A stretch of 5,101 bases of DNA from a virus (taxonomy: Duplodnaviria > Heunggongvirae > Uroviricota > Caudoviricetes). Of this stretch, positions 1 through 5,101 are shown piece after piece. Within the stretch, counting starts at the first letter, position 1. The number at the start of each line of letters is the position of its first letter. A program made the position numbers and the translations under genes. Location of the stretch: IMG/VR virus record IMGVR_UViG_2609459833_000010, positions 1 through 5,101 of that record; one strand, given 5' to 3'. The notes below the pieces were generated by a model that was given only the letters and a program-made list of their open reading frames with translations, was not told the origin of the DNA and searched no databases.

Positions 1-276
1 CAGGCTAACTGGCCGAATCTTGCCACGTTCTTCGCTTATCCAACGGACATCCGCAAAGTGATCTATACGACGAATGCCATCGAGTCGCTAAACAGCGTGA
101 TCCGCCATGCGATCAAAAAGCGTAAAGTGTTCCCGACAGACGACTCGGTGAAAAAAGTGGTGTGGCTGGCAATCCAGGCGGCTTCACAGAAATGGACGAT
201 GCCACTGCGGGACTGGCGTATGGCAATGAGCCGCTTTATTATCGAGTTCGGTGACCGCCTGGACGGCCACTTCTGA
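1..276 (+). CDS. IS256-family (Mutator-type) transposase, C-terminal fragment; the 5' end lies upstream of the window
   Basis: Frame 1 is open from base 1 to the stop at 274-276. The translation (QANWPNLATFFAYPTDIRKVIYTTNAIESLNSVIRHAIKKRKVFPTDDSVKK...KWTMPLRDWRMAMSRFIIEFGDRLDGHF) carries the C-terminal motifs typical of IS256-family transposases (YTTNxIESLN, KWTMP, F..RL). Recognised from memory, not searched. Confidence 0.8.
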   Translation, partial: QANWPNLATFFAYPTDIRKVIYTTNAIESLNSVIRHAIKKRKVFPTDDSVKKVVWLAIQAASQKWTMPLRDWRMAMSRFIIEFGDRLDGHF

Positions 277-290
277 GAAAAGGTATTTAC
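1..290 (+). mobile_element. Right-hand end of an IS256-family insertion sequence; the exact terminus is not determined
   Basis: Inferred from the transposase 3' end at 1-276. The terminal inverted repeat could not be located from sequence alone. The element must end within a few tens of bp of the stop and may overlap the 3' end of the convergent gene at 287-523. Confidence 0.45.
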
Positions 291-523
291 ACAGAATCCT
301 GAACAGGCTCTCCCCATTGTTTGTTCTTAAGTTCGATCTCCTCCTGGCAACTTGCACAAGTCCGACAACCCTGAACAGCCAGGCGTCTTCGCTCATCTAT
401 CGGATCGCCACACTCACAACAATGAGTTGCGGATACAGTCTGGTAGTTCAGACGACGCATTTTTATTGCTGTATTGCGCTGTAATTCTTCGATTTCTGAT
501 GCTGAATCAATGATGTCTGCCAT
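287..523 (-). CDS. TraR/DksA-family C4 zinc-finger protein (phage TraR-like, of the lambda Orf73 class)
   Basis: 78-aa ORF with an ATG start. It contains C-x2-C-x17-C-x2-C (CCEC...GDPIDERRRLAVQGCRT...CASC), the zinc-finger signature of TraR/DksA proteins, and its size matches F-plasmid TraR (73 aa). Confidence 0.8.
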   Translation of the reverse strand: MADIIDSASEIEELQRNTAIKMRRLNYQTVSATHCCECGDPIDERRRLAVQGCRTCASCQEEIELKNKQWGEPVQDSV

Positions 524-576
524 CTTTCATTAATCCCTGAATTGTTGGTTAATACGCTTGAGGGTAAATGCGAATA

Positions 577-600
577 ATAAAAAAGGAGCCTGTAGCTCCC
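577..600 (-). terminator. Weak candidate intrinsic terminator for the minus strand
   Basis: On the minus strand, a GGAGC / 5-nt loop / GCTCC hairpin (586-600) is followed by TTTTTTATT (577-585), about 20 nt after the stop of the 622-903 ORF. The stem is only 5 bp. Confidence 0.3.
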
Positions 601-621
601 TGATGATTTTGCTTTTCATGT

Positions 622-903
622 TCATCGTTCCTTAAAGACGCCGTTCAACATGCCGATCGCCAGGCTTAAATGAGTCGGTGTGAATCCCATCAGCGTTACC
701 GTTTCGCGGTGCTTCTTTAGTACGCTACGGCAAATGTCATCGACGTTTTTATCCGGAAACTGCTGTCTGGCTTTTTTGATTTCAGAATTAGCCTGACGGG
801 CAATGCTGCGAAGGGCGTTTTCTTGCTGAGGAGTCACTGAACAAGCCCCATGCCGGCAAGCATAAGCACACAGAATATGAAGCCCGCTGCCAGAAAAATG
901 CAT
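622..903 (-). CDS. Hypothetical small phage protein; the real start may be the internal GTG at 835-837, giving 71 aa
   Basis: 93-aa ORF from an ATG. The C-terminal 70 residues look protein-like (SEIKKARQQFPDKNVDDICRSVLKKHRETVTLMGF...), while the N-terminal 22 are Cys/His/Gly-rich and overlap another ORF. A GTG at 835-837 overlaps the stop of the 834-917 ORF. Confidence 0.45.
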   Translation of the reverse strand: MHFSGSGLHILCAYACRHGACSVTPQQENALRSIARQANSEIKKARQQFPDKNVDDICRSVLKKHRETVTLMGFTPTHLSLAIGMLNGVFKER

Positions 904-917
904 TCAGTGGTTGTCAT
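834..917 (-). CDS. Putative 27-aa hydrophobic single-helix peptide (MTTTECIFLAAGFIFCVLMLAGMGLVQ)
   Basis: Not in the supplied ORF track because it is short. Its ATG (915-917) overlaps the TGA stop of the upstream 914-1105 ORF as ATGA, suggesting translational coupling, and a purine-rich GAGAGAG lies 6 nt upstream. The product is almost entirely a transmembrane-like segment. Confidence 0.3.
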   Translation of the reverse strand: MTTTECIFLAAGFIFCVLMLAGMGLVQ

Positions 918-1105
918 ACCTGGTCTCTCTCATCTGCTTCTGCTTTCGCCACCATCATTTCCAGCTTTTGTGAAAGGGATGTGGCTAACGTATGAAATTC
1001 TTCGTCTGTTTCTACTGGTATTGGCACAAACCTGACTCTAATTTGAGCAAGGCTATGTGCCATCTCAATACTCGTTCTTAACTCAACAGGAGATGCTTTG
1101 TGCAT
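914..1105 (-). CDS. Small lambda early-left protein (orf60a/orf63 class), function unknown
   Basis: 63-aa ORF. It sits in the same position relative to exo as the small non-essential ORFs in phage lambda and overlaps the next ORF by 28 nt, as those do. Confidence 0.6.
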   Translation of the reverse strand: MHKASPVELRTSIEMAHSLAQIRVRFVPIPVETDEEFHTLATSLSQKLEMMVAKAEADERDQV

Positions 1106-1266
1106 ACCGCCTCCCGTTTATTATTTATCTTCTCAGCCAGCCGCTGTGCTTTCAGTGGATTTCTGATAACAGAAAGGCCGGGAAATACCCAGCCTCGCTT
1201 TGTAACGGAGTAGACGAAAATGATCGCGCCTACCCGGATATTATCGTGAGGATGCGTCATCGCCAT
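1078..1266 (-). CDS. Small phage protein immediately downstream of exo, function unknown
   Basis: 62-aa ORF ([62 protein letters not shown]). Its start overlaps the exo stop by 10 nt, so it belongs to the same leftward operon. Confidence 0.5.
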
Positions 1267-1937
1267 TGCTCCCCAAATACAAAACCAATTTCAGCCAGTG
1301 CCTCGTCCATTTTTTCGATGAACTCCGGCACCATCTCGTCAAAACTCGCCATGTACTTTTCATTCCGCTCAATCACGACATAATGCAGGCCTTCACGCTT
1401 CATGCGCGGGTCATAGTTGGCAAAGTACCAGGCATCTTTTCGCGTCACCCACATGCTGTACTGCACCTGGGCCATGTAAGCCGATTTTATTGCCTCGAAA
1501 CCACCGAGCCGGAATTTCATGAAATCCCGGGAGGTAAACGGGCATTTCAGTTCAAGGCCGTTGCCGTCACTGCATAAACCATCGGGAGAGCAGGCGGTGC
1601 GCATACTTTCGTCGCGATAGATGATCGGGGATTCAGTAACATTCACGCCGGAAGTGAATTCAAACAGGGTTCTGGCGTCGTTCTCGTACTGTTTTCCCCA
1701 GGCCAGCGCCTTAGCATTAACTTCCGGAGCCACACCGGTGCAAACCTCAGCCAGCAGGGTGTGGAAGTAGGACATTTTCATGTCAGGCCACTTCTTTCCT
1801 GAGCGGGGCTTTGCTATCACGTTGTGAACTTCTGAAGCGGTGATGACGCCGAGCCGTAATTTGTGCCATGCATCATCCCCCTGTTCGACAGCTCTCACGT
1901 CGATCCCGGTACGCTGCAGGATAATGTCCGGTGTCAT
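1257..1937 (-). CDS. exo: Lambda exonuclease (Red alpha), 5'-3' dsDNA exonuclease
   Basis: 226 aa, the length of lambda Exo. The sequence ([43 protein letters not shown]...) is recognised as essentially lambda Exo. Its start overlaps the bet stop by 4 nt, as in lambda. Confidence 0.96.
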
Positions 1938-2719
1938 GCTGCCTCCTTCTGCTCAGTGGCTTTCTGTTTCAGGAATCCAAGAGCTTTCACTGCTTCGGCC
2001 TGTGTCAGTTCTGACGATGCGCGAATGTCGCGGCGAAATATCTGGGAACAGAGCGGCAATAAGTCGTCATCCCATGTTTTATCCAGGGCGATCAGCAGAG
2101 TGTTAATCTCCTGCATGGTTTCATCGTTAACCGGAGTGATGTCGCGTTCCGGCTGACGTTCTGCAGTGTTAGCAGTATTTTCGACAATGCGCTCGGCTTC
2201 ATCCTTGTCATAGATACCAGCAAATCCGAAGGCCAGACGGGCACACTGAATCATGGCTTTATGCCGTAACATCCGTTTGGGATGCGACTGCCACGGTCCG
2301 GTGATTTCTCTGCCTTCGCGGGTTTTGAATGGTTCGCGGCGGCATTCATCCATCCACTCGGTAACGCAGATCGGATGATTACGGTCCTTGCGGTAAATCC
2401 GGCATGTACAGGATTCATTGTCCTGCTCAAAGTCCATGCCATCAAACTGCTGGTTTTCATTGATGATGCGGGACCAGCCATCAACGCCCACCACCGGAAC
2501 GATGCCGTTCTGCTTATCAGGGAAGGCGTAAATTTCTTTCGTCCACGGATTAAGGCCGTACTGGTTGGCGACGATCAACAATGCGATGAACTGCGCATCG
2601 CTGGCATCACCTTTAAATGCCGTCTGGCGAAGAGTGGTGATCAGTTCCTGTGGGTCGACAGAATCCATGCCGACACGTTCAGCCAGCTTCCCAGCCAGCG
2701 TTGCGAGTGCTGTACTCAT
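1934..2719 (-). CDS. bet: Lambda Beta (Red beta) single-strand annealing protein
   Basis: 261 aa, the length of lambda Bet. The sequence ([66 protein letters not shown]...) is recognised as essentially lambda Bet. A GAGG Shine-Dalgarno lies about 10 nt upstream. Confidence 0.96.
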
Positions 2720-2724
2720 CCGTT

Positions 2725-3021
2725 TTATACCTCTGAATCAATATCAACCTGATGGTGAGCAATGGTTTCAACCATGTACCGGATGTGTTCTGCCATGCGC
2801 TCCTGAAACTCAACATCGTCATCAAATGCACGGGTAATGGCTTTTTTGCTGGCCCCGTGGCGTTGCAAATGATCGATGCAGAGTGATTCAAACAGGTGCT
2901 GTGGAAGACCTTTTTCCATGTCGTCTGCCAGTTCTGCCTCTTTCTCTTCACGGGCAATCTGCTGGTAGTGACGCGCCCAGCTCTGAGCCTCAAGACGATC
3001 CTGAATGTAATAAGCGTTCAT
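2725..3021 (-). CDS. gam: Host-nuclease (RecBCD) inhibitor Gam, short form
   Basis: 98-aa ORF ([60 protein letters not shown]...[10 protein letters not shown]) recognised as lambda GamS. An AGGAG Shine-Dalgarno lies 7 nt upstream of the ATG. An in-frame stop at 3076-3078 with no start codon in between rules out the longer lambda-type form here. Confidence 0.94.
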
Positions 3022-3096
3022 GGCTGAACTCCTGAAAATGGCTGTGAAAATATCGCCCGCGAAATGCCAGGCTGATTAGGAAAACAGGAAAGGGGA

Positions 3097-3507
3097 TTAG
3101 TGATTCAGGCCGTTGCCTCGTCCGTCGAGAAAAACTTCCACGAGCAAATCACGGGTATAAGTGCGCTCGATGCCGCGATGCAGATATAGCCGTCCGCGTA
3201 AATTAGCTGATGCTGTCCAGGTACCATCTTTGTGTTTGACCAGCATTCCTGGCATGACCGCACCGCGATTAACGGTCTGCGTTCCGTAATGTTGATGAAC
3301 CATAAAAACTCCTGCCCGTAAGCTGGGCTGCTGAACATATAAAGACTTCTGCGCGTATTCAGGCGGTGGATGGCCGCCGGTTGTCATAACTAAGCCGCCT
3401 CGTTGAAGCGACTGAGGTATGAAATGTTGAGTTAATTTCAGCTGGTCACACCGACGTTCACGCGTCCGCTTCACCCCTCGCACTTCCCGGAGCCTGCTGA
3501 AATTCAA
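3097..3507 (-). CDS. Hypothetical Arg-rich protein or gene remnant; no ATG at the head of the ORF
   Basis: 136-codon open frame, and the plus strand here is closed in all frames. The frame opens right after a stop at 3517-3519 and its first start-like codon is TTG. The first ATG is codon 41, preceded by GAGG about 10 nt upstream, which would give 96 aa. No family recognised. Confidence 0.3.
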   Translation of the reverse strand: MNFSRLREVRGVKRTRERRCDQLKLTQHFIPQSLQRGGLVMTTGGHPPPEYAQKSLYVQQPSLRAGVFMVHQHYGTQTVNRGAVMPGMLVKHKDGTWTASANLRGRLYLHRGIERTYTRDLLVEVFLDGRGNGLNH

Positions 3508-3588
3508 GCTACGGATCTAAGCGGTCATCGCAACGGTGAATCAGGTGGTTGCCGTATCGTTGTGTTGTTGCGATATGATGATAATAGC

Positions 3589-3625
3589 TATTGCTATTGG
3601 TGATATCAATACTTATTGCTATTGG
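3589..3625. repeat. Two perfect copies of a 12-bp direct repeat, TATTGCTATTGG, 25 bp apart in AT-rich intergenic DNA
   Basis: Read directly: 3589-3600 and 3614-3625. Each copy is itself a GCTATT-type tandem, and both lie in the AT-rich spacer between the terminator at 3747-3774 and the ORF at 3097-3507. Confidence 0.5.
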
Positions 3626-3746
3626 CTGATGTGTTTTGATATTAAATGTTTGATAGCAAAAAGAATTAATTTTGTGACTTGCATCGCATAGCGATAACTG
3701 AAGCAGGGGCATGGTGGTTTTTTGAACGGTGTGTGATGAGGGGAGG

Positions 3747-3774
3747 CAAAAGAAAACCCGGCACGACGGCCGGG
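3747..3774 (-). terminator. Intrinsic (rho-independent) terminator downstream of the membrane-protein gene
   Basis: On the minus strand, a GC-rich hairpin CCCGGC-cgtcgt-GCCGGG (3757-3774) is followed by TTTTCTTTTG (3747-3756), starting 9 nt after the TGA stop at 3783-3785. Confidence 0.55.
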
Positions 3775-3782
3775 GAGGGGGG

Positions 3783-4289
3783 TCATTTTAATCTATCAAG
3801 GAGTGACTCTCTTTCCTTCTTCTCTGATTCTCTTCGGTTTAATAACGCTTTAAACTCTTGAAGCTCAACCATTATTTTATGAACGAATACACTGGTATAG
3901 AGAGAAATAAAGAGTAATCCACCTGAAATTTTTAAGACCCTGAAGAGTAGGGCTTGATCATTTGTGCTTGCTATTAACCCCAAGATTACAAACAAAGTTG
4001 AAAATACATAGAAAGCTAATAATAAAACCAATTTCAGTCTCTTGGATTTGACTATTGGCACTAATCGCCTAACCTCACTAGGGGTTAAAGACGAGTGGTC
4101 ATTGGCCTCATTTGCCTTAAAAATGGCTTGTATACAATATGATAATGGCAATTGCATGAGTCCAACCACAGCCCACGGAGCTGTTAGGACAACACCCGGT
4201 GTAATATAGCCCAATGCTGACTTGAACAAAAAGTAACCAGCAACATAGAAGACCAACATACCAATAAGGTGGATGATGTTCGATTTCAT
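3783..4289 (-). CDS. Predicted integral membrane protein (about 4 transmembrane helices, charged C-terminal tail), function unknown
   Basis: 168-aa ORF with an ATG start and a canonical AGGAGG Shine-Dalgarno 5 nt upstream. Hydrophobic stretches sit at about residues 5-22, 30-57, 85-107 and 112-136, followed by a Lys/Glu/Arg-rich tail (LQEFKALLNRRESEKKERESLLDRLK). The gene is AT-rich and starts 21 nt after the upstream gene's stop. Confidence 0.75.
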   Translation of the reverse strand: MKSNIIHLIGMLVFYVAGYFLFKSALGYITPGVVLTAPWAVVGLMQLPLSYCIQAIFKANEANDHSSLTPSEVRRLVPIVKSKRLKLVLLLAFYVFSTLFVILGLIASTNDQALLFRVLKISGGLLFISLYTSVFVHKIMVELQEFKALLNRRESEKKERESLLDRLK

Positions 4290-4310
4290 TATCGCCCTCC
4301 TTTTGGTAGG

Positions 4311-4781
4311 TTATTTTGCAACCAATTCTCCGGCATCAAGTTTTGAGAACAGCCACTTATGCATTTTTAAGAATAAATCATTTTCATCAATAATGCCATT
4401 GTTATGTTCAACGCTAATTTTTCCGGATAATTTTATCTCTTTTCCCGTTATTTCCCCACCGCCTTGAAGTTTGATGCTAATATCATCCTCATCTAGATGT
4501 CGTAGTGAGGTAGCAATACTGTCTATAACAGCTTGACCGCTATCATTTGTTTTTCTGAAGTATGTAATCTCGAGGCTTACTTGTAAATTGGCCTCATCTA
4601 ATGAATCTTTAATGTTTATATCATTTGCCCAGTTATCGCCAAAAAATGCTTTTAGTAGCGCACCTCCTTTCCCTATTGGGCGGTATTTTATTGTCTTCAC
4701 CGAACCATTTGAAAAGGAGGGTGTTTGGTTCTCTGAATTTTTAACTTCTGAAGTAATGGGTAATCTGATCTTACCCAGCAA
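4311..4781 (-). CDS. Hypothetical soluble protein, first gene of the two-gene cassette; 5' end apparently truncated by the IS3 insertion
   Basis: 156-codon frame ending in TAA at 4311-4313. The head of the frame (4766-4781) is IS3 inverted-repeat sequence and the first start-like codon is a TTG inside IS3. The native portion (4765 and below) has no ATG until near the C-terminus, and its only GTG (codon 28) has no Shine-Dalgarno. No family recognised. Confidence 0.55.
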   Translation of the reverse strand: MLGKIRLPITSEVKNSENQTPSFSNGSVKTIKYRPIGKGGALLKAFFGDNWANDINIKDSLDEANLQVSLEITYFRKTNDSGQAVIDSIATSLRHLDEDDISIKLQGGGEITGKEIKLSGKISVEHNNGIIDENDLFLKMHKWLFSKLDAGELVAK

Positions 4782-5101
4782 TAGTGGACACGCGGCTAAG
4801 TGAGTAAACTCTCAGTCAGAGGTGACTCACATGACAAAAACAGTATCAACCAGTAAAAAACCCCGTAAACAGCATTCGCCTGAATTTCGCAGTGAAGCCC
4901 TGAAGCTTGCTGAACGCATCGGTGTTACTGCCGCAGCCCGTGAACTCAGCCTGTATGAATCACAACTCTACAACTGGCGCAGTAAACAGCAAAATCAGCA
5001 GACGTCTTCTGAACGTGAACTGGAGATGTCTACCGAGATTGCACGTCTCAAACGCCAGCTGGCAGAACGGGATGAAGAGCTGGCTATCCTCCAAAAGGCC
5101 G
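4766..5101 (+). mobile_element. IS3 (IS3 family), left end and start of orfA; continues beyond the window
   Basis: The left inverted repeat begins at 4766 (TGATCTTACCCAGCAATAGTGGACACGCGGCTAAGTGAG...), followed by the orfA start at 4831. Recognised as the E. coli IS3 left end. Confidence 0.93.
4831..5101 (+). CDS. insE: IS3 OrfA (transposase N-terminal helix-turn-helix / leucine-zipper protein), 3' end outside the window
   Basis: Translation from the ATG at 4831 (MTKTVSTSKKPRKQHSPEFRSEALKLAERIGVTAAARELSLYESQLYNWRSKQQNQQTSSERELEMSTEIARLKRQLAERDEELAILQKA) is recognised as IS3 OrfA (InsE). It is absent from the ORF track only because no stop falls inside the window. Confidence 0.93.
   Translation, partial: MTKTVSTSKKPRKQHSPEFRSEALKLAERIGVTAAARELSLYESQLYNWRSKQQNQQTSSERELEMSTEIARLKRQLAERDEELAILQKA

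What the first reader, a model, noticed from the sequence alone, without database searches (positions are those of the whole stretch)
4750..4835. IS3 insertion appears to decapitate the first gene of the cassette
The IS3 left inverted repeat begins at 4766, and the open frame of the 156-codon gene runs straight into it. The native part has no ATG and no Shine-Dalgarno-preceded start near its 5' end, so the original N-terminus and promoter probably lie beyond the 1.26-kb IS3. The cassette may therefore be inactive here, or the membrane protein may be expressed alone from IS-derived transcription.
Basis: partly seen in the sequence, partly recalled or inferred. Interest (0 to 1): 0.5.

Follow-up and report, generated by a model that had tools for sequence, protein, structure and literature searches.

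The report
IS3-split RexAB-like prophage defence cassette
An IS3 mobile element has cut a 340-codon prophage gene in two, which probably disables a two-gene anti-phage module that resembles phage lambda's RexA/RexB; the insertion itself is ordinary, but the module had not been recognised as Rex-like.

Summary
Homology with IS-free prophages runs colinearly over window 311-4765 and stops at 4765. IS3's left inverted repeat starts at 4766.

The uninterrupted gene is 340 codons. The window keeps only codons 191-340 plus 2 nt of codon 190, and no credible start codon remains.

Joining the flanks in silico with a 3-bp duplication (ATC) predicts a 195-aa N-terminal fragment. That exact protein is annotated in E. 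coli 3-073-06_S1_C2, the window's source strain. So this is a simple IS3 insertion, and the missing half lies beyond the IS.

In the near-identical LF82 prophage Perceval, published RNA-seq shows membrane-gene transcript levels 1.6-22 times those of the upstream gene. Its expression here therefore probably does not need IS-derived transcription. Defence is probably lost.

Verdict: an ordinary IS pseudogenisation in a mildly novel Rex-type module.

The parts
4766..5101 (+). Left end of IS3. The left inverted repeat starts at 4766 (TGATCTTACCCAGC...). The orfA (InsE-type, HTH_Tnp_1) ATG is at 4831. The contig ends inside the element.
   Evidence: 335/336 identity to the complete 1258-bp IS3 of T309.Ta3. 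Homology to IS-free prophages stops at 4765. Pfam HTH_Tnp_1 is recorded on the called gene. PGAP labels the T309.Ta3 copy 'IS3-like element IS3 family transposase'.
4763..4765 (+). Left copy of the 3-bp target-site duplication, ATC (GAT on the gene strand: nt 2-3 of codon 190 plus nt 1 of codon 191).
   Evidence: Only the 3-bp-duplication reconstruction gives a protein (195 aa) that exists in the source strain. The 0-bp and 4-bp variants are absent. The 190-aa product of the 2-bp variant is also in the collection, but as a protein annotated 'partial' in other assemblies, so it does not argue for a 2-bp duplication.
4311..4765 (-). 3' remnant of the RexA-like gene: codons 191-340 of 340, the stop codon, and 2 nt of codon 190. 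It lacks the whole N-terminal domain and has no usable start.
4311..4781 (-). Chimeric 156-codon ORF (TTG start inside IS3, MLGKIR + 150 native residues). RefSeq annotates it as WP_248841938.1, but it has no Shine-Dalgarno sequence.
4296..4302 (-). Strong Shine-Dalgarno sequence AAGGAGG, 6 nt upstream of the membrane gene's ATG (4289). It lies in the 21-nt spacer after the upstream gene's stop, so the membrane gene is translated independently.
   Evidence: Read directly from the sequence.
3783..4289 (-). Intact RexB-like gene: 168 aa, four transmembrane helices, a C-terminal charged helix, and a conserved basic loop between helices 2 and 3 (E72, R74, R75, K83 invariant).
   Evidence: Hydropathy. 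AlphaFold model with pLDDT 85 and four long helices. Partners conserved at 36-38% identity in Photorhabdus and Methylobacter. Annotated 'transmembrane protein' in phage Perceval.
3757..3774 (-). Intrinsic-terminator-like hairpin (6 G-C pairs followed by TTTTCTTTT) 9 nt after the membrane gene's stop. This is the end of the cassette.
3576..3625 (-). pL-like promoter (TTGATA-17-TATTAT, 3609..3581) embedded in two 25-bp direct repeats that are putative operators. It drives kil-gam-bet-exo leftward. It is listed as context, because it shows that the cassette occupies the slot between cI and pL.
   Evidence: Function is inferred.

Best explanation
The window is a whole 5.1-kb contig of E. coli 3-073-06_S1_C2. 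It carries the early-left arm of a Perceval-like lambdoid prophage.

Between the cI repressor gene (off-contig here) and the pL region sits an AT-rich two-gene module transcribed leftward. The first gene encodes a 340-aa cytoplasmic protein with the RexA/RdgC fold. The second encodes a 168-aa four-helix membrane protein. By fold, partner and position, this is a RexAB-type abortive-infection or exclusion module. By analogy, the RexA-like protein would sense an infecting phage (probably through DNA or a DNA-protein complex) and activate the membrane protein, which would then damage or depolarise the membrane.

A 1258-bp IS3 transposed into codon 190/191 of the RexA-like gene and duplicated ATC. 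Its transposase is oriented opposite to the cassette. The window therefore keeps only the C-terminal 150 codons with no start. The N-terminal 190 codons, the gene's promoter region and cI lie on the other side of IS3, on another contig.

Consequences, all inferred:
- No functional RexA-like protein is made, so the defence function is lost.
- The membrane gene is intact. It keeps its own strong ribosome-binding site and terminator. It is probably still expressed, because in an IS-free near-identical prophage its transcript levels are well above those of the upstream gene.

Shown: the insertion, the truncation, the duplication, fold similarity to RexA, conserved gene pairing and position, and expression in LF82.

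Inferred: the defence function, the sensing and effector mechanism, continued expression of the membrane gene in this strain, and contiguity of the two halves across one IS3.
For: Insertion and truncation.

IS3 anatomy: a complete IS3 is 1258 bp with a 3-bp duplication.

Both halves in one strain: the predicted 195-aa N-terminal chimera is present in the same strain as the window's TraR/DksA protein.

Full-length family: homologues are 325-398 aa with invariant N-terminal residues.

Position: the cassette lies directly downstream of the cI-like S24 repressor in E. coli, phage Perceval, Methylobacter and Pseudomonas. In an Acinetobacter phage it lies downstream of a 'transcriptional repressor' gene, with one small gene between. 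This is the same order as lambda cI-rexA-rexB.

Membrane partner: it is conserved and has four helices.

Composition: the cassette is 37% G+C and its flanks are 50%.

Expression: LF82 RNA-seq gives log2 values of 8.4-10.4 for the membrane gene, 4.2-9.6 for the upstream gene and 6.2-8.1 for cI (PMC9928086).

Against: - No sequence-level link to Rex. Pfam RexA/RexB and PADLOC RexA/RexB profiles hit the lambda proteins strongly and hit nothing in this family. hhalign against lambda RexA and RexB is negative.
- The AlphaFold model is only moderate (mean pLDDT 70). The C-terminal domain mostly scores below 70 until the last about 50 residues.
- A four-helix membrane bundle is a generic fold. Lambda RexB was not among the top 50 BFVD matches.
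- No phage-exclusion experiment exists for this family in the searchable literature.
- RNA-seq is per gene. It cannot place the membrane gene's promoter relative to the IS3 site, and differential RNA stability could contribute to the difference.
- The two sigma-70-like sites in the remnant are no more than chance would give.
- The two halves are on different contigs, so an IS3-mediated rearrangement after insertion cannot be excluded.
Confidence: 0.75

Rival explanations
1. The junction is real, but the locus has been rearranged. IS3-mediated deletion, inversion or recombination between IS3 copies has moved the N-terminal half and cI elsewhere, so what lies beyond this IS3 copy is unrelated DNA.
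For: Both halves end in IS3 at contig ends, so adjacency is not shown. The contig's other end is also an IS (IS256/Mutator-type), which indicates an IS-rich, degrading prophage. E. coli genomes carry a median of 3 places that match the IS3 end.
Against: The N-terminal fragment in the same strain carries exactly the 3-bp duplication expected for a simple insertion. The 0-bp and 4-bp reconstructions are absent. An independent IS3 insertion in the same gene in a complete genome (T309.Ta3) is a simple insertion with both halves contiguous.
Confidence: 0.1
2. The cassette is not a Rex-type defence module. It is another kind of lysogen-expressed moron, for example a toxin-antitoxin-like pair, a superinfection-exclusion membrane protein with a regulator, or a DNA-binding modulator of the lysis-lysogeny switch. 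Its RexA/RdgC fold would then reflect only generic DNA binding.
For: No RexA/RexB profile hits. There is no experimental phenotype. RexA itself has RexB-independent roles in the lambda switch. The membrane gene is expressed far above the upstream gene, which hints at a function of its own.
Against: RexA is the clear top structural match by two methods, and the neighbour list is the same as RexA's own. The pairing with a four-helix membrane protein and the position after cI recur from E. coli to Methylobacter, Pseudomonas and Acinetobacter. Equally divergent systems of this architecture have been shown to defend.
Confidence: 0.2
3. The truncated ORF (156 codons, or a shorter form starting at GTG 4700) is translated and keeps a function, so the insertion remodels the first gene rather than inactivating it.
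For: RefSeq annotates the 156-aa ORF (WP_248841938.1). The remnant corresponds to a discrete C-terminal domain that follows a variable linker.
Against: None of the three in-frame starts has a Shine-Dalgarno-like sequence. No promoter-like site is found on that strand in the IS3 end. The missing 190 residues hold most of the family's invariant positions, 20 of 31.
Confidence: 0.04

Closest known systems
Bacteriophage lambda RexA-RexB exclusion system (Pfam PF15969/PF15968; PDB 8TWQ)
   Same: - Two genes in the order cytoplasmic protein then small four-helix membrane protein.
- They lie immediately downstream of cI on the same strand, followed by a terminator and the pL/oL region.
- The first protein's model has RexA as its top structural match.
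- The genes are expressed in the lysogen, with the membrane gene in excess over the first gene. From my own knowledge, this resembles lambda, where rexB has an extra promoter (pLIT) inside rexA.
   Different: - No detectable sequence similarity.
- The first protein is 340 aa, against 279 for RexA.
- The membrane protein is 168 aa, against 144 for RexB, and has a long charged C-terminal helix.
- There is no N gene between the cassette and kil.
- Function is untested.
RexAB-type system RexABpp of Pseudomonas putida prophage P1 (PP_5643/PP_5644; PMC12894663)
   Different: I did not compare the P. putida sequences directly with this family. There, two extra genes separate the system from the repressor. 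That system has experimental proof and this one has none.
Actinobacteriophage Rex-like systems (Sbash gp30/gp31, CarolAnn, Butters gp30/gp31)
   Same: A cytoplasmic protein is paired with a four-helix membrane protein expressed from the prophage. In Sbash gp31 the charged loop between helices 2 and 3 is essential (R70, D73). The membrane family here has invariant E72, R74, R75 and K83 in the equivalent loop. A 165-aa Sbash protein is the second-best BFVD match to the membrane-protein model (probability 0.97, E 0.12).
   Different: Sbash gp30 carries the DUF4747 motif shared with RexA, and this family matches no Pfam model. I could not confirm that the BFVD hit is gp31. The hosts and phage lineages differ.
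IS3 insertional gene disruption (IS3 family, 1258 bp, 3-bp target duplication)
   Same: All features match: imperfect terminal inverted repeats beginning TG, the orfA start, a 3-bp duplication, and a simple insertion that splits an ORF.
   Different: Nothing is unusual. The only notable point is a second, independent IS3 insertion 156 bp away in the same gene and in the same orientation in another lineage.

Membership tests
IS3 (IS3 family insertion sequence) | Terminal imperfect inverted repeats (about 39 bp, TGATC...GATCA) and identity to reference IS3 | tested here: met
   Window 4766-5101 differs at 1 of 336 positions from a complete IS3. Its left and right repeats match at 27 of the first 40 positions. 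Only the left end lies in the window.
IS3 (IS3 family insertion sequence) | 3-bp target-site duplication | tested here: met
   This was tested indirectly. The 195-aa protein predicted with an ATC duplication exists in the source strain, and the 0-bp and 4-bp variants do not. It is seen directly (ATG) for the independent insertion in T309.Ta3.
IS3 (IS3 family insertion sequence) | orfA/orfB transposase made by programmed -1 frameshift; element length 1258 bp | tested here: inconclusive
   Only the first 90 codons of orfA are in the window (HTH_Tnp_1). Full length and a PGAP-annotated programmed frameshift are seen in the near-identical T309.Ta3 copy. The copy at this locus is not assembled.
RexA (Pfam PF15969 / PADLOC PDLC02339 / DUF4747) | Match to the family's sequence profile | tested here: not met
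   None of 37 family members hits RexA or DUF4747 at E<=1. Lambda RexA, as a control, hits at 1e-97 (Pfam) and 9e-110 (PADLOC). hhalign probability is 0.1%.
RexA (Pfam PF15969 / PADLOC PDLC02339 / DUF4747) | RexA/RdgC two-domain fold (globular domain plus beta-sheet dimerisation domain) | tested here: met
RexA (Pfam PF15969 / PADLOC PDLC02339 / DUF4747) | Non-specific DNA binding; dimer | not testable with these tools
   This needs EMSA or a multimer-plus-DNA model.
RexAB-type system (architecture) | RexA-like gene followed by a gene for a small four-helix membrane protein, co-conserved | tested here: met
   The pairing is kept in E. coli, Photorhabdus, Methylobacter, Pseudomonas and an Acinetobacter phage. 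The Photorhabdus and Methylobacter partners are 36-38% identical to the window's protein. There are four hydrophobic helices.
RexAB-type system (architecture) | Location in the immunity region downstream of the cI-like repressor and expression in the lysogen | tested here: met
   Searches show the location in IS-free relatives. LF82 RNA-seq shows expression above prophage background. In the window itself cI is off-contig.
RexAB-type system (architecture) | Both genes required for exclusion of superinfecting phage; membrane depolarisation or damage on activation | not testable with these tools
   No experiment on this family was found.
RexB (Pfam PF15968 / PADLOC PDLC02340) | Match to the family's sequence profile | tested here: not met
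   No hit for the 168-aa protein. Lambda RexB, as a control, hits at 8.5e-92 and 8.6e-61. hhalign probability is 1.5%.
Kiwa (KwaA membrane protein + KwaB), considered because of a similar size pairing | Match to KwaA/KwaB profiles | tested here: not met
   No PADLOC model of any system matches either protein at E<=10. That PADLOC-DB holds Kiwa models, and that Kiwa's gene order (membrane protein first) is the reverse of the order here, are both from my own knowledge.

The most novel reading that the evidence does not exclude
This family (PHROG 3482 + PHROG 16807) could be an unrecognised clade of RexAB-type defence modules. It is widespread in Gammaproteobacteria and invisible to the Pfam and PADLOC profiles tested here. 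Its membrane subunit may also have a selectable function of its own. Three observations point that way. Membrane-gene transcript levels are up to about 20 times those of the sensor gene. The membrane gene stays intact while the sensor gene is knocked out repeatedly and independently: IS3 at codon 190, IS3 at codon 138, a -1 frameshift in an A7 tract, a frameshift near codon 55, and a deletion. That pattern would parallel lambda RexB's RexA-independent activities. Alternatively it could mean that the sensor is costly and counter-selected.
Probability: 0.3. Interest if true: 0.5.

Novelty: new member of a known kind. Interest (0 to 1): 0.3.

Why it matters
The IS3 insertion itself is routine prophage decay. 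It matters only for annotating this strain: the 156-aa ORF and the 195-aa ORF are two halves of one pseudogene.

The by-product is more useful. A pair of 'hypothetical proteins' found in 43 of 5,426 complete E. coli genomes, including the Crohn's-associated strain LF82, and in many other Gammaproteobacteria can now be proposed as a RexAB-type exclusion module. The Pfam and PADLOC profiles tested here miss it.

If confirmed, this would extend the Rex family. It would also offer a natural allelic series (intact, IS-split, frameshifted) for asking what a RexB-like membrane protein does without its sensor.

Tried and rejected
- Sequence-profile searches gave nothing for either protein: Pfam, PADLOC and PDB-sequence searches. 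PHROGs returned only unknown-function families.
- hhalign of the family alignments against lambda RexA and RexB was negative.
- An exact search for the window's IS3 junction found nothing in genome contigs or metagenome contigs. The junction is also absent from 5,426 complete E. coli genomes.
- IS-derived outward promoter: no promoter-like site on the - strand within 4766-5101. The two weak sites inside the remnant (4713..4685, 4587..4559) are no more than shuffled sequence gives, 5 found against 4.1 expected. I rejected this as evidence.
- Kiwa and other two-gene membrane systems were considered. No PADLOC model matched.
- An Acinetobacter phage homologue is labelled 'DefenseFinder protein' by its depositors. 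I could not find out which model caused that label, and PADLOC gives no hit for it.
- My guessed accession for phage Sbash was wrong; it was phage Cosmo. The identity of the Sbash BFVD hit as gp31 therefore remains unverified.

Full report
**What the window is.** The 5,101-bp window is an entire contig, JNRV01000145.1 of assembly GCA_000704865.1. Its 78-aa TraR/DksA protein is KDZ56281.1 of E. coli 3-073-06_S1_C2.

On the - strand it carries the early-left arm of a lambdoid prophage:
- TraR/DksA zinc-finger gene (287-523)
- a small ORF (622-903)
- DUF1382 and DUF1317 genes
- exo (1257-1937), bet (1934-2719) and gam (2725-3021)
- kil (3097-3303)
- a 168-codon membrane-protein gene (3783-4289)
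- the 156-codon ORF of the finding (4311-4781)

Both contig ends are insertion sequences. Positions 1-310 are the end of an IS256/Mutator-type element. Positions 4766-5101 are IS3.

**Checking the observation.** BLASTN against the IS-free prophage of strain FHI_NMBU_03 (L001) gives a single gap-free alignment. Window 311-4765 matches L001 1612-6066 at 98.9% identity and stops exactly at 4765. The native sequence reads ...ggtaatc|caccaat; the window reads ...ggtaatc|TGATCTTACCCAGC. From 4766 on, the window differs at 1 of 336 positions from a complete 1258-bp IS3 found in strain T309.Ta3.

The ORF frame continues 16 nt into IS3 to a TTG at 4781. The in-frame candidate starts are TTG 4781, GTG 4700 and ATG 4364, and none has a Shine-Dalgarno-like sequence upstream.

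The junction is also not an assembly artefact. It recurs in an independent metagenome scaffold (L005). Proteins annotated as partial in other isolates break at the same codon (P0142 of 190 aa and P0166 of 150 aa).

**The uninterrupted gene.** Of 5,426 complete E. coli genomes, 43 carry the cassette, and 42 of them match at least 80% of the two-gene query (coverage only, so small frameshifts would not show). The annotated loci I inspected encode a 340-aa protein followed by the 168-aa membrane protein.

About 120 homologues from Enterobacterales, Pseudomonas, Aeromonas, Halomonas, Methylococcaceae and phages are 325-398 aa. Their N-terminal domain is well conserved: 20 of the 31 invariant positions lie in residues 1-190.

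The window keeps codons 191-340 plus two bases of codon 190. The insertion falls at the invariant Gly (G189) just before the variable inter-domain linker.

**Finding the other half.** The contig ends in IS3, so I rebuilt the locus in silico. I joined the window up to 4765, the 1258-bp IS3, a duplication of 0-5 bp, and the L001 continuation.
- With a 3-bp duplication (ATC), the N-terminal fragment reads through the IS3 right end as ...SIKIGG-LILPT*, 195 aa.
- That exact sequence is KDZ57040.1 / WP_032270812.1 (locus tag AB44_4779) of E. coli 3-073-06_S1_C2, on contigs up to 12.1 kb.
- The 0-bp and 4-bp variants are not in a collection of 15 billion proteins.
- The 190-aa product of the 2-bp variant is in the collection, but as a protein annotated 'partial' in other assemblies (P0142). 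It therefore does not point to a 2-bp duplication.

This is the strain that carries the window, so both halves are in one genome with the signature of a simple IS3 insertion.

I could not show that a single IS3 joins them.

**What the cassette is.** Neither protein matches any Pfam or PADLOC model, and only unknown-function PHROGs (3482, 16807) match.

The genomic position is informative. In IS-free E. coli prophages, including phage Perceval of strain LF82, the order is cI repressor, 340-aa gene, membrane gene, kil, gam, bet, exo. In the window the membrane gene is followed by a G+C-rich terminator hairpin (3774-3757). After that comes a pL-like promoter (TTGATA-17-TATTAT, 3609-3581) set in 25-bp direct repeats. 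That is the layout of lambda cI-rexA-rexB-terminator-oL/pL.

The same pair follows an S24/HTH repressor gene in Methylobacter and Pseudomonas. In an Acinetobacter phage it follows a 'transcriptional repressor' gene, with one small gene in between. In Photorhabdus it occurs next to a tail gene. The cassette is 37% G+C in a 50% background.

An AlphaFold2 model of the full-length protein (37-sequence alignment; pLDDT 70, pTM 0.66) gave these results:
- Foldseek top hit: the same chain, E 1.7e-3, probability 0.99.

The partner protein has four hydrophobic helices and a basic loop between helices 2 and 3 with invariant E72, R74, R75 and K83. In the Rex-like membrane protein Sbash gp31, the corresponding loop is essential.

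**Consequences of the insertion.** In Rex-type systems that have been tested, both genes are needed. A copy lacking the N-terminal 190 residues and any start codon should therefore be defence-null. This is an inference.

The membrane gene is intact. It has its own AAGGAGG ribosome-binding site 6 nt before its ATG and keeps its terminator.

I found no promoter-like site pointing outward from the IS3 left end.

Published RNA-seq of LF82, whose Perceval cassette is 99.8% identical, gives the following log2(fpkm+5) ranges across five conditions:

| Gene | log2(fpkm+5) |
|---|---|
| Membrane gene | 8.4-10.4 |
| 340-aa gene | 4.2-9.6 |
| cI | 6.2-8.1 |
| kil, gam (background) | about 2.3-3.4 |

The membrane gene exceeds the upstream gene by about 20-fold in overnight LB and by 1.6- to 6-fold elsewhere. 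The authors list it as a moron at 81 times background. This argues for a separate promoter, or for selective transcript stability, for the membrane gene. From my own knowledge, lambda rexB has such a promoter, pLIT.

If that start site lies in the retained 455 bp, the membrane protein is still made alone in this strain. Per-gene counts cannot settle the position.

**Recurrent disruption.** The same gene is hit in several other ways:
- a second, independent IS3 in T309.Ta3, 156 bp further upstream at codon 138, in the same orientation, with duplication ATG. Matching contig breaks occur in 12-15 draft assemblies.
- a -1 frameshift in an A7 tract (DKKREF to DKKESL*, 118 aa; at least 22 contigs)
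- a frameshift near codon 55
- a deletion on the 43-kb plasmid record of strain SZQ1 (pOHT76-1_1)

In the cases I could inspect, the membrane gene stays intact. I did not normalise these counts against neighbouring genes, so I record this as a lead and not as a result.

**Verdict.** The event is an ordinary IS3 pseudogenisation. The one nuance is that the membrane gene probably does not depend on the IS for expression. The added value is that the interrupted 'hypothetical' cassette is best explained as a sequence-divergent RexAB-type prophage exclusion module.

Noticed in passing
window 1-310 (and 287-523): The other contig end is the 3' end of an IS256/Mutator-family element (Transposase_mut C-terminus at 58-276). 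Homology to IS-free prophages starts at 311. The insertion therefore replaces the last codons of the TraR/DksA zinc-finger gene, which is 78 aa here and 72-73 aa elsewhere. The DUF4222, xis and int genes that follow in relatives are off-contig.
   Followed up: partly
L003 4233-5490 (E. coli T309.Ta3): An independent IS3 insertion lies in the same RexA-like gene, 156 bp further 5' at codon 138. It has the same orientation, a length of 1258 bp and target duplication ATG. Partial proteins of 138 and 202 aa that break at this codon occur in 12-15 draft assemblies.
   Followed up: yes
L001 6289-6295 (upstream of the IS3 site, not in the window): An A7 tract on the gene strand (codons 114-116) carries a -1 frameshift allele (DKKREF to DKKESL*, 118 aa). 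The rest of the gene is re-called as a 208-aa protein from Met133. The allele is seen on at least 22 contigs. It probably explains why PHROGs has separate families for the two halves (phrog_29708 and phrog_33638).
   Followed up: partly
window 3576-3625 and 3581-3609 (- strand): Two 25-bp direct repeats ending in TTGCTATTGG overlap the best sigma-70-like site in the region (TTGATA-17-TATTAT, 10 of 12). They are likely the pL promoter and its operators for the kil-gam-bet-exo operon of this immunity type.
   Followed up: no
window 3783-4289; LF82 genes LF82_152/153/154: Published LF82 RNA-seq shows that membrane-gene transcript levels are up to about 20 times those of the gene upstream and always above cI. 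In one condition (B6) the 340-aa gene is about 5 times above cI. This implies promoters independent of the repressor's promoter.
   Followed up: partly
P0142 / P0166 (other E. coli assemblies): Partial proteins break at exactly the window's insertion codon (190 | 191), but the C-terminal part carries Tyr where the window has His in the motif ISVEHNNG. Either the same site was hit twice or the allele has since diverged or recombined.
   Followed up: no
window 3097-3507: The kil region is annotated inconsistently. PGAP aa (3097-3303), the Perceval record calls a 139-aa Kil, and the longest ORF here is 136 aa from a TTG.
   Followed up: no
L012 2483-3484 (Acinetobacter phage phi1_092021): A 32%-identical homologue of the RexA-like protein is labelled 'DefenseFinder protein' by its depositors. 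It lies downstream of the phage repressor gene and is followed by a 167-aa protein that weakly matches a PADLOC '4TM effector' model (E 0.0014). I could not identify which DefenseFinder model caused the label.
   Followed up: partly
L010 (E. coli SZQ1 plasmid pOHT76-1_1, 43 kb): A 43-kb record deposited as a plasmid carries the same prophage arm. A deletion there has removed most of the RexA-like gene, cI, cro and part of ydaT, and the membrane gene is intact.
   Followed up: no
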